Shown in pieces: positions 5,670 to 37,718 of a stretch of 64,000 nt of DNA. The notes beneath the pieces are model-generated. The model did not search any database. It saw nothing but the letters and a program-made list of their open reading frames with translations, and was not told the DNA's origin. Positions within the stretch are counted from its first letter, which is position 1, and each line of letters begins with the position of its first letter. The stretch covers positions 416,001-480,000 of IMG/VR virus record IMGVR_UViG_3300049988_000286; one strand, given 5' to 3'. Position numbers and translations under genes: made by a program. This stretch comes from a virus. Taxonomy: Duplodnaviria; Caudoviricetes.

Positions 5670-6434
5670 TCAATTTCTATAAACGAGTTTTTCCACCCCA
5701 TCGACATCAGTGAAGCGAAAGCGCACGTAGGTGTAATTACCATCAAAGTTCAACACGACGGGTCCGGTGCGCGTAGAGAGAGTTTCGCGCGCGACCTCGG
5801 CCCAATCCTGCGAGGTGGGCGTTGAGAGATCAAGGCTGGCCTCGACGATGATATCGCCGGTGTAGGCGAGCAGATGTGCCACCAATGTGTGATTACCAGA
5901 GGGATTGTCGGCACGTGCCGCGCCCGCGAGCGCACCGGTTTGTAGCTGCCCCGCCAAGGGGGTGAGGTCGTCCGCCATGATGATGATAGGCTCATCAGCG
6001 GGAGTGATGATCCCTTCCGAGACCTCGGCGATCCCCTTGGTCTCATAGTCGGTGTTGGTGTAAAGGAGGGCGGGCGTGTCGTTGGTGCTTGAGGAAACCG
6101 ACCACACGTAAATACCTAGTGTCAGTCCGATGGTGGAGGCGGCTGATAGGGTAAGGCGATAATGGCCGCGTGCGGCGTTGACGACAGCGAGGGGCTGCTC
6201 CACCAACGAATTACCCTTGCTGTCCCACAGGTGGAAGGTCAACACGCCATCGAGAACGACTGGCTGGCGGTCAATATCACGAAGGAGGAAGTCCAGATTA
6301 TTGGCAGCGCGACGGAAGATTTTGAAAGTCGAGCGATTGTAGGCAGAATGCGTGATCATCTTGGCTCCCGAATGCACGCCAGCGACGGTCAATTGTGCGA
6401 CTTGAGGGACCGAGTAGATACTAATGGCTGACAT
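5670..6434 (-). CDS. Late hypothetical protein, beta-rich, probably structural
   Basis: 254-aa ORF; ATG 5 nt after TAAATA (6440-6445). Confidence 0.7.
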   Translation of the reverse strand: MSAISIYSVPQVAQLTVAGVHSGAKMITHSAYNRSTFKIFRRAANNLDFLLRDIDRQPVVLDGVLTFHLWDSKGNSLVEQPLAVVNAARGHYRLTLSAASTIGLTLGIYVWSVSSSTNDTPALLYTNTDYETKGIAEVSEGIITPADEPIIIMADDLTPLAGQLQTGALAGAARADNPSGNHTLVAHLLAYTGDIIVEASLDLSTPTSQDWAEVARETLSTRTGPVVLNFDGNYTYVRFRFTDVDGVEKLVYRN

Positions 6435-25740: not shown

Positions 25741-26277
25741 ATGCGCCTTGCCCTCCTCGCCATTCTGCTACTCACGGGTTGCACCACCACTAGGGTGACT
25801 CTTCCCCAGCGTAGTGCCACCGAACAACTCCTCATCAGCGAAGCCGCCGAAGCTGCTGCTGTCGCGATCCACCTCAATCTCGGCTCTCGCAAAGCTTTCC
25901 TCGATACCACCAACTTCGAGGGGGTGGATGCCCGCTACGCCATGTCGGCGATCCGGGAATCCCTGCTACGGCAGGGTAATGCGATCGTTGACAACCGTGA
26001 CCTCGCCGATACCATCATTGAGGTGAGGGCAGGAGCGCTATCGATAGACAGTGCCACAAAGGTGCTCGGTATTCCGAGCGTCGATGTCCCTCGCTTCTTT
26101 ATCCCCGGCCTCAACATCGTTTCGCGCACCCGCAACACCGGCGTGGCCCGCTTCTCACTCTTTGCCTACGATCGCGCTACCGGGAAACTGGTAGCCTTGG
26201 TGGCACCGGTGACCGGTTACAGCCGCCGTGACACCAAATCGTTTGGGAGCGTCATCGCGTGGAGCGCGCAGCGGTGA
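25741..26277 (+). CDS. Late lipoprotein, host-like
   Basis: Signal peptide with lipobox LLTGC; ATG 4 nt after TAAATA. Confidence 0.8.
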   Translation: MRLALLAILLLTGCTTTRVTLPQRSATEQLLISEAAEAAAVAIHLNLGSRKAFLDTTNFEGVDARYAMSAIRESLLRQGNAIVDNRDLADTIIEVRAGALSIDSATKVLGIPSVDVPRFFIPGLNIVSRTRNTGVARFSLFAYDRATGKLVALVAPVTGYSRRDTKSFGSVIAWSAQR

Positions 26278-27134: not shown

Positions 27135-27179
27135 ATGAACACGCAGAGCCATCACACCTATTATCATTACCACGCGTAA
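27135..27179 (+). CDS. His/Tyr-rich leader peptide MNTQSHHTYYHYHA
   Basis: ATG AAC ACG CAG AGC CAT CAC ACC TAT TAT CAT TAC CAC GCG TAA; 4 His + 3 Tyr; precedes tRNA-Tyr/His genes. Confidence 0.75.
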   Translation: MNTQSHHTYYHYHA

Positions 27180-28793: not shown

Positions 28794-29066
28794 TCAATGC
28801 GCGTCTCCCCAAGACGATCCAAATTCGCCGCAGTTGCGGTTGATTGAATCCATTACGCCATCTACCTCTGTCATGAAGTGTTCTTGATCGGTCTGGTCGA
28901 GACCACGATACATCCTTACATTTGCTGCAATAATAGCGCGACAGTTTTTCGGAAGACCGCTGCTGCCATAAATTGGTTTGCTGTTGTCCAGCAGTTCGGC
29001 GTCCGCTGAAACACATCCCGTCACGAGCAACACACCCATCAGCACACCCATCAGCATCTTCTTCAA
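28794..29066 (-). CDS. Small lipoprotein
   Basis: Lipobox LVTGC; SD GGAG. Confidence 0.65.
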   Translation of the reverse strand: MKKMLMGVLMGVLLVTGCVSADAELLDNSKPIYGSSGLPKNCRAIIAANVRMYRGLDQTDQEHFMTEVDGVMDSINRNCGEFGSSWGDAH

Positions 29067-29165
29067 GTCGGCATCTCCCTACGCGTTCTATCAACGAACT
29101 ATCACACAGGTACGACTCCTTGTCAAAGCGCCTTCGTGCTGGCACCACCGCGTGAGGAGACGCCG

Positions 29166-37375: not shown

Positions 37376-37460
37376 TGGTCCCCCGGACGAGAATCGAACT
37401 CGCTGATGCTTTCGCAAACAGGCGTGAGAAACCTGCGTCCTGCCATTAGACTTCCGGGGG
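37376..37460 (-). tRNA. tRNA-Glu(CUC) with long variable arm
   Basis: Acceptor CCCCCGG/CCGGGGG, A73, CCA; CAGGT-TT-CTC-AC-GCCTG; V arm TGC-GAAA-GCA; TTCGATT. Confidence 0.88.
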
Positions 37461-37461
37461 A

Positions 37462-37545
37462 TGGCCGCGCTGACGGGAATCGAACCCGCTTCTGCTTTCG
37501 CAACAGGAGTGAAAGTCCTGCGTCCGCCCATTAGACTTCAGCGCG
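37462..37545 (-). tRNA. tRNA-Glu(UUC) with long variable arm
   Basis: Acceptor CGCGCTG/CAGCGCG, G73, CCA; CAGGA-CT-TTC-AC-TCCTG; V arm TGC-GAAA-GCA; TTCGATT. Confidence 0.88.
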
Positions 37546-37577: not shown

Positions 37578-37628
37578 AGAAACAGAACCAAAATCACCCG
37601 CGCCGTCGAGGCGCGTGAAAGCGCACTC
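37578..37628 (-). promoter_or_regulatory. Terminator/antiterminator-like switch upstream of the tRNA-Glu pair
   Basis: Hairpin CGCGCC-tcgac-GGCGCG (37599-37615) with U-rich tail; competing GAG+GCGC helix (37608-37628). Confidence 0.5.
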
Positions 37629-37674
37629 AACCGATCGAGCGTTCGCGTTCCATGAGGGTGTAGGTCGTGTTCAT
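37627..37674 (-). CDS. Leader peptide MNTTYTLMERERSIG
   Basis: ATG 5 nt after TAAATA (37680-37685); two GAA codons; same ATG AAC ACG start as the His/Tyr leader. Confidence 0.6.
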   Translation of the reverse strand: MNTTYTLMERERSIG

Positions 37675-37718
37675 GTTTTTATTTATGCCTGAACGGCATC
37701 CGGGCGTCAACATCTTTT

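What the first reader, a model, noticed from the sequence alone, without database searches (positions are those of the whole stretch)
37376..37545. Two tRNA-Glu genes carrying a class II-type long variable arm
Both tRNAs have Glu-like D arms (GUCU...GAC) and Glu anticodons, but each has a 14-15-nt extra arm with an identical UGC-GAAA-GCA stem-loop. Established: bacterial tRNA-Glu has a short variable loop; long arms mark Ser, Leu, Tyr and Sec tRNAs, and SerRS recognises the long arm while ignoring the anticodon. The UUC copy has G73 (as in tRNA-Ser) and the CUC copy has A73. Inference: the arm either shields them from host anticodon nucleases or toxins, or redirects charging and causes Glu-to-Ser/Leu misreading.
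Basis: partly seen in the sequence, partly recalled or inferred. Interest (0 to 1): 0.68.

Follow-up and report, generated by a model that had tools for sequence, protein, structure and literature searches.

The report
Phage glutamate tRNAs with extra arm
A 500-kb phage makes its only two glutamate tRNAs with an extra hairpin arm that textbooks reserve for leucine, serine and tyrosine tRNAs; the arm is real and kept by selection, recurs in unrelated giant phages but not in bacteria, and probably still allows glutamate loading while changing the tRNA's shape.

Summary
Window 37545-37462 and 37460-37376 (minus strand) are two tandem tRNA-Glu genes (UUC with G73, CUC with A73). Both encode CCA, and each has a 14-15 nt variable region holding the same UGC-GAAA-GCA hairpin. 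The body is Glu/Gln-type, not Ser/Leu/Tyr-type.

They are the only Glu decoders in a 499,572-bp virus record that has no GluRS. Glu codons make up 6.2% of its codons.

The arm is selected. I found about 23 distinct long-armed tRNA-Glu in other phage or metagenome contigs (24-57% GC). Stem sequences differ but stay complementary (41/42 pairs against 21 in shuffles). None turned up in 596 Gb of cellular genomes.

The arm is part of a wider, uneven phage trait: Asn 36%, Thr(UGU) 23%, Glu(UUC) 8%, Ala 0/81, Phe 0/74.

Best reading: these are working glutamate tRNAs whose arm alters the tRNA body seen by tRNA-targeting host nucleases or toxins. That function is inferred, not shown. Ser/Leu mischarging is unlikely.

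I found no paper describing this. The scan's earlier notes report long-armed class-I phage tRNAs on other DNA (162 notes in at least 148 genomes).

The parts
37462..37545 (-). tRNA-Glu(UUC), 84 nt with encoded CCA, G73, C1-G72, A8
   Evidence: ARAGORN; Rfam tRNA 51.0 bits; cloverleaf plus extra hairpin as MFE; parse
37490..37503 (-). 14-nt variable region of the UUC copy; hairpin UGC-GAAA-GCA at 37502-37493
   Evidence: the helix covaries in homologues
37511..37513 (-). anticodon UUC within loop CUUUCAC, which is the loop I recall for E. coli tRNA-Glu (from memory, not checked here)
37461..37461 (-). single-base spacer between the CCA of the first tRNA and base 1 of the second
37376..37460 (-). 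tRNA-Glu(CUC), 85 nt with encoded CCA, A73, C1-G72, A8
   Evidence: ARAGORN; Rfam tRNA 47.3 bits; fold z -2.4; parse
37404..37418 (-). 15-nt variable region of the CUC copy; hairpin UGC-GAAA-GCA at 37416-37407
37426..37428 (-). anticodon CUC within loop UUCUCAC

Best explanation
Both genes are genuine elongator tRNAs that read GAA/GAG, and they are most likely loaded with glutamate by the host GluRS. Each is a Glu/Gln-type class-I body into which a short, stable hairpin (3-4 bp plus a GAAA cap) has been inserted between positions 44/45 and 46-48. The hairpin is kept by selection. It belongs to a phage-specific tRNA design in which chosen isoacceptors carry a class-II-like arm. The most likely role of the arm is steric. 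It leaves the anticodon loop, acceptor end and T arm unchanged, so decoding should continue. [quoted passage not shown] Shown: the genes, the fold, covariation of the arm, restriction to phages, the Glx body, the absence of a phage GluRS, and the uneven spread over isoacceptors. Inferred: glutamate charging by the host enzyme, and the anti-nuclease role.
For: The tRNAs are real and well formed. The D-arm nearest neighbours among 512 phage tRNAs are Glu and Gln, not Ser or Leu. U11-A24 and U13-G22, major E. coli GluRS determinants (PMC9976931), are present. They are the sole Glu decoders of the genome, while GAA+GAG make up 6.2% of codons in 246 long ORFs. Conserved catalytic Glu residues of the phage SerRS align with Glu in solved SerRS structures. 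There is no GluRS/GlnRS domain in this phage or in five other phages carrying long-armed tRNA-Glu. A class IIa synthetase domain occurs only in this phage. The arm is selected: 14 distinct homologues have ten different stems, with 41 of 42 loop-proximal cells paired, against a shuffle mean of 21 and a maximum of 35 in 10,000 shuffles. Seven more with other arms were found without any constraint on the Glu gene. It is phage-specific: the same pattern gives 6 real loci in IMG/VR and no Glx-bodied hit in 596 Gb of cellular genomes. The spread is uneven: Asn 36%, Thr UGU 23%, Cys 20%, Lys UUU 10%, Glu UUC 8%, but Ala 0/81 and Phe 0/74. AlaRS reads essentially only G3-U70 (PMC7373986), so synthetase tolerance alone does not explain the gap. 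By pattern count, Asn has at least 114 loci, Lys 78, Asp 9 and Glu 6. AriB targets Lys UUU, Thr UGU and Asn GUU, cuts at 40|41, and its second monomer is predicted to touch the D loop (PMC12409363); the inserted arm lies between those two contact points on the tRNA. The phage also encodes a CCA-adding-type nucleotidyltransferase and two RNA-ligase-domain proteins.
Against: In E. coli the A46 triple and the absence of nucleotide 47 are major GluRS determinants, so a 14-15 nt variable region should hurt charging if the host enzyme behaves like E. coli's. The tRNAs also have C1-G72 rather than G1-C72 and A8 rather than U8. No bacterial defence nuclease specific for tRNA-Glu turned up in my literature searches. 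Most characterised anticodon nucleases read mainly the anticodon stem-loop, which here is host-like. The AriB correlation is post hoc and comes from loci chosen because they hold a long-armed tRNA. Expression and charging are untested, and no sigma-70-like promoter was found next to the genes.
Confidence: 0.45

Rival explanations
1. Tolerated insertion without a function of its own. The variable region is the one place where a tRNA accepts extra bases. Redundant phage tRNA genes pick up small insertions, and selection only keeps them as compact stable hairpins so that folding is not disturbed.
For: GAAA is simply the commonest cap of variable arms in these phages: 20/91 class II arms and 9/41 long class-I arms. 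Arm length and sequence vary widely, from 13 to 22 nt. In G001 and G002 a normal-length tRNA-Glu(UUC) sits in the same genome, so one copy could drift. Host tRNA-Glu is available anyway.
Against: The trait is strongly uneven across isoacceptors, with none in Ala (0/81) or Phe (0/74). It is absent from cellular genomes, which also carry redundant tRNA genes. In this phage and in G003 the long-armed copies are the only Glu tRNAs. The arm is invariant in a clade of at least 9 contigs whose tRNA differs elsewhere, and the hairpin is identical in the two window paralogues although 3 of 7 acceptor pairs differ.
Confidence: 0.25
2. Self-mark or handle for a phage factor. The arm lets a phage-encoded protein (a modification, processing or repair enzyme, or a phage nuclease that destroys host tRNAs) tell phage tRNAs from host tRNAs.
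For: The trait is phage-specific. The phage has a large translation toolkit: 40 or more tRNAs, tmRNA, SerRS, a CCA-adding-type enzyme and RNA-ligase domains. GNRA loops are classic docking elements (established knowledge).
Against: Only 9 of 32 class-I tRNAs in this genome carry the arm, 1 of 26 in G002 and 2 of 20 in G003, so it does not mark the phage set as a whole. Arm sequences and lengths are not uniform. The carrier phages differ greatly in base composition (24-57% GC), and I identified no shared candidate protein. The ten neighbouring ORFs have no Pfam hit.
Confidence: 0.15
3. Identity switch. The arm recruits SerRS, LeuRS or TyrRS (host or phage), so that Glu codons are partly read as Ser, Leu or Tyr.
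For: SerRS reads the size of the long arm and ignores the anticodon (PMC9976931). The UUC copy has G73 and G2-C71, and the CUC copy has A73 as tRNA-Leu does. This phage encodes a full SerRS with its arm-binding coiled coil. Nematode nev-tRNAs show such misacylation in vitro (PMC3333845).
Against: The body is Glx-type with a 4-bp D stem and a 7-nt D loop. C1-G72 replaces the G1-C72 that is conserved in bacterial tRNA-Ser. The arm has 3-4 bp and 2-3 unpaired 3' bases, against 5 bp and a flush base in the phage's own three tRNA-Ser. The features of the phage's own tRNA-Leu (U8, G9, Leu-type D loop) are missing. Four other phages with long-armed tRNA-Glu have no class IIa synthetase of their own. 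These are the only Glu decoders for 6.2% of codons.
Confidence: 0.05
4. Not used in translation: a decoy or bait for a host protein, a substrate for a Glu-tRNA-dependent enzyme, or decaying genes.
For: The long variable region and A8 disturb the core that E. coli GluRS reads. I recall from memory (Randau et al. 2004, not checked here) that glutamyl-tRNA reductase reads the same core.
Against: Both have perfect 7-bp acceptor stems, encoded CCA, a canonical T loop, a canonical anticodon loop with U33 and A37, and high covariance-model scores. Position 15 and the last variable base covary across the family: G15 with C in 4 of 4, A15 with A or U. No other Glu tRNA exists in the genome.
Confidence: 0.1

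Closest known systems
Canonical bacterial tRNA-Glu (class I), with E. coli tRNA-Glu as reference
   Same: Anticodons UUC/CUC with A37. The loop CUUUCAC is, from memory, the E. coli tRNA-Glu loop. D stem GUCU/GGAC with U11-A24 and U13-G22, 7/5 acceptor/T branch, canonical T loop.
   Different: The variable region is 14-15 nt with a hairpin, instead of 4 nt lacking residue 47. C1-G72 replaces G1-C72, and A8 replaces U8.
Bacterial class II tRNAs (Leu, Ser, Tyr), including this phage's own copies
   Same: A stem-loop in the variable region, often GNRA-capped. Its length (14-15 nt) falls within the range of the phage's tRNA-Leu (13-17 nt).
   Different: The anticodon is not Leu, Ser or Tyr, and the D arm is Glx-type, not class II type. 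It lacks G1-C72 and U8-G9. The arm is shorter than in the phage's tRNA-Ser (16 nt, 5 bp).
Nematode nev-tRNAs (PMC3333845, PMC4300185)
   Same: A long variable arm combined with an anticodon for an amino acid whose tRNAs normally have a short arm.
   Different: nev-tRNAs are class II (Leu-like) bodies with a changed anticodon and are leucylated in vitro. Here a class-I Glu body has gained an arm. The organisms also differ: eukaryotic nuclei versus phages.
allo-tRNAs (Mukai et al. 2017, PMC5389517)
   Same: Non-canonical bacterial and phage tRNAs with a long arm and non-Ser anticodons, found in metagenomes.
   Different: allo-tRNAs have 8/4 or 9/3 acceptor/T branches, a Sec-like D arm and Ser identity elements. 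The window tRNAs are 7/5 with a Glx body.
Phage tRNA variants that resist defence nucleases (T5 tRNA-Lys/Thr/Asn against PARIS AriB, PMC11464382 and PMC12409363; anticodon-loop variants, PMC10264068)
   Same: Phage copies of tRNAs that keep decoding but differ from host tRNAs in ways proposed or shown to escape cleavage.
   Different: The known escapes are point substitutions in the anticodon stem-loop or D loop. T5 tRNAs are of normal length. Here the anticodon loop is host-like and the change is a whole added arm. Resistance is not demonstrated.

Membership tests
tRNA (Rfam RF00005) | Covariance-model score above the gathering threshold, with all four arms | tested here: met
   51.0 and 47.3 bits against 29, model positions 1-71; ARAGORN; MFE cloverleaf
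tRNA-Glu (E. coli identity set, PMC9976931) | Anticodon U/C34-U35-C36 and A37 | tested here: met
   Loops CUUUCAC and UUCUCAC
tRNA-Glu (E. coli identity set, PMC9976931) | U11-A24 and U13-G22 in a 4-bp D stem | tested here: met
   D stem GUCU/GGAC in both
tRNA-Glu (E. coli identity set, PMC9976931) | Short variable loop: A46 triple and no residue 47 | tested here: not met
   Variable region of 14 and 15 nt with a hairpin. An A is available 3' of the hairpin, but the triple cannot be tested.
tRNA-Glu (E. coli identity set, PMC9976931) | G1-C72 and U2-A71 (weak determinants) | tested here: not met
   C1-G72 with G2-C71 or C2-G71
tRNA-Glu | Aminoacylation with glutamate by GluRS | not testable with these tools
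   Needs an in vitro charging assay. No phage GluRS was found.
Class II tRNA-Ser | Long arm of Ser-type size plus G1-C72, G2-C71 and a class II D arm | tested here: not met
   3-4 bp arm against 5 bp in the phage tRNA-Ser; C1-G72; Glx-type D arm
Class II tRNA-Leu | A73 plus a Leu-type D loop/core (features of the phage's own tRNA-Leu: U8, G9, GCGAAAUUGGUAGCACGC-type D arm) | tested here: not met
   Only the CUC copy has A73. Both have A8 A9 and a 7-nt D loop.
nev-tRNA | Class II (Leu-like) body carrying a non-Leu/Ser anticodon | tested here: not met
   The body's nearest neighbours are Glu/Gln. A true example of that design with UUC was seen elsewhere (L164, L177).
allo-tRNA | 8/4 or 9/3 acceptor/T branch | tested here: not met
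   7-bp acceptor and 5-bp T stem
Intron-containing tRNA | Insert at 37/38 or a bulge-helix-bulge or group I intron | tested here: not met
   The insert lies in the variable region and is 10 nt of plain hairpin. By contrast, the archaeal hits L168 and L169 do have anticodon-loop introns.

The most novel reading that the evidence does not exclude
The extra arm is an evolved counter-defence structure. [quoted passage not shown] This would be a general, structural mode of immune evasion distinct from the known point mutations in the anticodon loop. It would imply an undiscovered host nuclease or toxin aimed at tRNA-Glu.
Probability: 0.35. Interest if true: 0.85.

Novelty: new variant of a known kind. 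Interest (0 to 1): 0.7.

Why it matters
Textbooks state that in bacteria only Leu, Ser, Tyr and Sec tRNAs carry a long variable arm. For tRNA-Glu in particular, a short variable loop is a major recognition element for E. coli GluRS. Here a class-I glutamate tRNA with a selected extra arm is the sole Glu decoder of a 500-kb phage, and the design recurs across unrelated large phages. If these tRNAs are charged and used, the accepted identity rules for GluRS need qualifying. It would also show that the tRNA core tolerates far more remodelling than assumed, which is useful for engineering orthogonal or tagged tRNAs. If the arm blocks tRNA-cutting defences, it is a new class of phage counter-defence and a pointer to unknown nucleases. 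Long-armed tRNAs would then become genomic markers of which host tRNAs are under attack.

Tried and rejected
1. Close relatives of the window DNA. blastn of the tRNA pair against 50,697 phage records and against E. coli genomes found nothing. A neighbouring 456-aa protein has no relative in IMG/VR. Conservation in near kin therefore could not be examined.

2. Gene context. Ten flanking ORFs have no Pfam match, and no sigma-70-like promoter lies nearby.

3. A private GluRS/tRNA pair. Rejected: PF00749 is absent from this phage and from five others.

4. Dependence on a phage SerRS. Rejected: a class IIa synthetase is present only in this phage.

5. An arm that copies the cognate anticodon, as earlier notes propose for Ile(UAU) and suppressor tRNAs. 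Rejected for Glu: the loops are GAAA, GUGA, GUAA and similar, and none shows UUC or CUC in an anticodon-like loop.

6. GAAA as a Glu-specific signal. Rejected: it is the commonest cap in all variable arms of these phages.

7. A hidden normal tRNA-Glu in the genome. Infernal and a hairpin scan found none; the candidate at 27176 is not a tRNA.

8. An intron reading. Rejected (see membership test).

9. A cultured phage with a long-armed tRNA-Glu. T5 and Burkholderia phage FLC9 have normal ones.

10. A leader-peptide attenuator upstream. The fold is not better than shuffles (z -1.1), so I left it as a side note.

11. The MAFFT alignment of the family misplaced the arms. I counted pairs from a loop-anchored parse instead.

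Full report
**What is there.** The window is bases 416001-480000 of a single 499,572-bp virus record. The record has 57% GC and CheckV completeness of 100. ARAGORN finds 41 tRNA genes and a tmRNA in it, and Infernal adds a few more.

On the minus strand of the window, ARAGORN calls tRNA-Glu(UUC) at 37545-37462 and tRNA-Glu(CUC) at 37460-37376. Rfam's tRNA model scores them 51.0 and 47.3 bits against a threshold of 29, and places an 11-13 nt insertion in the variable region. Each folds on its own into a cloverleaf plus a fifth hairpin as the minimum-energy structure.

The anatomy is as follows:
- 7-bp acceptor stems, both starting C1-G72.
- A8 A9.
- A 4-bp D stem GUCU/GGAC with a 7-nt loop.
- Anticodon loops CUUUCAC and UUCUCAC.
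- Variable regions of 14 and 15 nt, each holding the same UGC-GAAA-GCA hairpin.
- Canonical T arms.
- G73 and A73, with CCA encoded in both.

One base separates the two genes.

**What kind of tRNA body.** The nearest neighbours are Glu and Gln tRNAs, including the phage's own normal-length tRNA-Gln(UUG). No Ser or Leu tRNA ranks near.

The phage's own class II tRNAs look different. Its three tRNA-Ser have G1-C72, G2-C71, U8-G9 and a 16-nt arm with 5 bp. Its tRNA-Leu have A73, U8-G9 and the typical long D loop. So this is a class-I Glx body that has gained a hairpin, not a class II body with a changed anticodon.

The opposite design does exist. A Leu-like body with anticodon UUC turned up in Gemmatimonadota assemblies and soil contigs. 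It is a different molecule.

**Are they used as Glu tRNAs?** They are the only Glu decoders in the genome. Infernal's extra hits read Ile, Val, Ala and Tyr anticodons, and a scan for Glu-type anticodon hairpins found no further tRNA.

GAA and GAG together make up 6.2% of codons in 246 long ORFs, and GAG is 65% of the two. In the phage's own SerRS, the conserved Glu residues of the catalytic motifs align with Glu in solved bacterial SerRS structures. The phage therefore writes Glu with these codons in the ordinary way.

The genome has no GluRS/GlnRS catalytic domain, and neither do five other phage records that carry long-armed tRNA-Glu. If the tRNAs are charged with Glu, the host enzyme must do it.

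According to the identity review PMC9976931, the major E. coli determinants are:
- U34, U35, C36 and A37.
- U11-A24.
- The U13-G22:A46 triple.
- The absence of residue 47.

The window tRNAs keep the anticodon-loop and D-stem elements. They violate the short-loop rule and the weak G1-C72 determinant. In Helicobacter pylori the D stem and loop hold no major GluRS determinants (PMC2777447), so the E. coli rule is not universal. Charging remains an inference.

**Is the arm selected?** Pattern scans that fixed only the Glu anticodon loop and the T loop recovered long-armed, Glx-bodied tRNA-Glu on IMG/VR contigs of 40-429 kb and on metagenome contigs. Fourteen distinct sequences carry a GNRA-capped hairpin with ten different stems. 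Examples are GUC/GAC, UUGC/GCAA, ACAUU/AAUGU, GUUG/CAAC, UUCC/GGAA and AGA/UCU.

In the three pairs next to the loop, 41 of 42 cells are Watson-Crick or G-U. Re-pairing the 5' and 3' halves among sequences gives a mean of 21 and at most 35 in 10,000 trials.

Seven more long-armed tRNA-Glu(UUC) were found in the flanks of loci fetched for other isotypes, so nothing was demanded of the Glu gene itself. Their arms have 2-7 bp and varied loops.

Within one clade of at least 9 contigs, the tRNA varies in the anticodon stem, D loop and T stem while the arm is invariant. The two window paralogues differ in 3 of 7 acceptor pairs yet share the hairpin exactly.

Position 15 covaries with the last variable base: G15 with C in 4 of 4, A15 with A or U. 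This suggests the Levitt-type tertiary contact is kept.

**Where it occurs.** The same pattern gave no Glx-bodied hit in one genome for each of 185,579 prokaryotic species (596 Gb). It returned chance matches, two archaeal intron-bearing tRNA-Glu and the Leu-like form.

I compared four complete or near-complete carrier genomes:

| Genome | GC | Long-armed class-I tRNAs | Which |
|---|---|---|---|
| This phage | 57% | 9 of 32 | fMet-like, Arg, Asn x2, Cys, Gln, Ile UAU, Glu x2 |
| G001 | 40% | 8 of 35 | several |
| G002 | 28% | 1 of 26 | Glu only |
| G003 | 24% | 2 of 20 | Glu and His |

A normal tRNA-Glu(UUC) coexists in G001 and G002. None does in this phage or in G003.

**How the trait is spread.** It holds 78 with Lys(UUU), 9 with Asp(GUC) and 6 with Glu(UUC).

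I then pooled 1,655 unique class-I tRNAs from these loci, leaving out of each locus the isotype that fetched it. The share with a long arm is:

| Isoacceptor | Share with long arm |
|---|---|
| Asn | 36% |
| Thr UGU | 23% |
| Cys | 20% |
| Ile UAU | 20% |
| Met | 13% |
| Lys UUU | 10% |
| Trp | 10% |
| Glu UUC | 8% |
| Ala | 0 of 81 |
| Phe | 0 of 74 |
| Glu CUC | 0 of 22 |

The window's CUC copy is therefore the only long-armed tRNA-Glu(CUC) I saw. The sample is conditional on loci that hold at least one such tRNA, and related phages are not independent. These are rough figures.

**Mechanism.** The spread argues against pure drift. AlaRS reads essentially only G3-U70 (PMC7373986) and should tolerate any arm, yet no long-armed tRNA-Ala appears.

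The isoacceptors most often armed include the three biologically relevant targets of the PARIS nuclease AriB: Lys UUU, Thr UGU and Asn GUU. AriB cuts between 40 and 41 in the anticodon stem. Its second monomer is predicted to contact the D loop, and other parts of the tRNA body also matter (PMC12409363). The inserted arm emerges three bases after that cut site, between the two contact areas, so a steric clash is plausible.

It is established structural knowledge that class I synthetases such as GluRS approach from the acceptor minor-groove and D-arm side, with the variable region facing solvent. I did not model this.

The phage also carries a CCA-adding-type nucleotidyltransferase and two RNA-ligase-domain proteins, which fits a conflict over tRNA integrity.

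My best explanation is therefore a working Glu tRNA with a structural disguise. I put this at roughly 45%. It is limited by three things: no known nuclease aimed at tRNA-Glu, a host-like anticodon loop, and no experimental data.

The rivals are:
- A tolerated insertion with no function of its own (25%).
- A handle for a phage factor (15%).
- A non-translational or decoy role (10%).
- Ser/Leu mischarging (5%).

**A further oddity.** Both tRNAs have A8 instead of the near-universal U8. Among phage tRNA-Glu in my sample, A8 occurs in 8 of 16 long-armed sequences and in 1 of 30 normal ones. It comes together with A15 and an A at the last variable position. This points to a remodelled core in one subfamily (window x2, L030, L118, L218). 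By established knowledge, A8 would also remove the s4U8 modification site.

**Literature and earlier notes.** Nine full-text searches found no paper describing long variable arms on class-I tRNAs of phages. The paper on phage tRNAs evading nucleases does not mention variable arms. The nearest precedents are nev-tRNAs (PMC3333845) and allo-tRNAs (PMC5389517), and both differ in body type.

The scan's own earlier notes report the same kind of thing on other DNA: 162 notes in at least 148 genomes, plus several on this genome. They are unchecked AI notes. I used them as leads only, notably the pointer to the AriB paper, and re-derived what I cite.

**Verdict.** The tRNAs most likely still carry glutamate. 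The purpose of the arm is unproven, with escape from tRNA-targeting host factors the leading idea. It is a new variant of a known kind of molecule and appears to be unpublished.

Noticed in passing
L164:3118-3205 (+), L177:3182-3269 (-); also L193, L194, L217, L225, L238, L242: An 88-nt tRNA with a Leu-like class II body (D arm GGCGAAACCGGUAAACGC, 15-nt arm GGGC-GAAA-GCCC), anticodon UUC, C73 and no encoded CCA. It sits on Gemmatimonadota MAG contigs and soil metagenome contigs. This is the reverse design (class II body with a Glu anticodon), comparable to nev-tRNAs.
   Followed up: no
window 37599-37687 (-): Upstream of the tRNA pair on the same strand lie three elements. The first is a CATAAATAAAAA motif (37687-37676). 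The second is a 15-codon ORF at 37674-37627 (MNTTYTLMERERSIG, with two GAA codons). The third is a G+C-rich hairpin with a U run (37615-37599). It could be a small gene with its terminator, or a leader controlling read-through into the tRNAs. The fold is not better than shuffles (z -1.1).
   Followed up: partly
window 37538 and 37453 (position 8 of each tRNA); L030, L118, L218, L222: A8 replaces the near-universal U8 in both tRNAs. Among phage tRNA-Glu, A8 is found in 8/16 long-armed and 1/30 normal sequences. It co-occurs with A15 and an A as the last variable base.
   Followed up: partly
None was seen for Ala (0/81) or Phe (0/74). The top classes overlap the targets of PARIS AriB.
   Followed up: partly
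G000:C1:25982-26054, 29033-29105, 403056-403126: Infernal-only tRNA hits (Val GAC, Ala GGC, Ile GAU) that ARAGORN misses. The two at 25982 and 29033 have an unusual T loop (GGCAGAA instead of UUCGAAU), and the third (403056) also lacks the UUCGA motif.
   Followed up: no
G000:C1:98857-99225 (-), 324268-324723 (-), 5859-6305 (+): The phage encodes a CCA-adding/poly(A) polymerase-family nucleotidyltransferase (PF01743, 111 bits) and two RNA-ligase-domain proteins (PF09414). It has no RtcB.
   Followed up: no
L126:3871-3964, L161:1611-1704: 94-nt ARAGORN 'tRNA-Glu' calls with two UUUC-containing hairpins in the anticodon region. They may be intron-bearing or mis-called. I excluded them from the family.
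   Followed up: no
G000:C1:102238-102314 and 106351-106425: Two tRNAs with anticodon CUA (amber suppressor type) in a genome where TAG ends 36 of 246 long ORFs.
   Followed up: no
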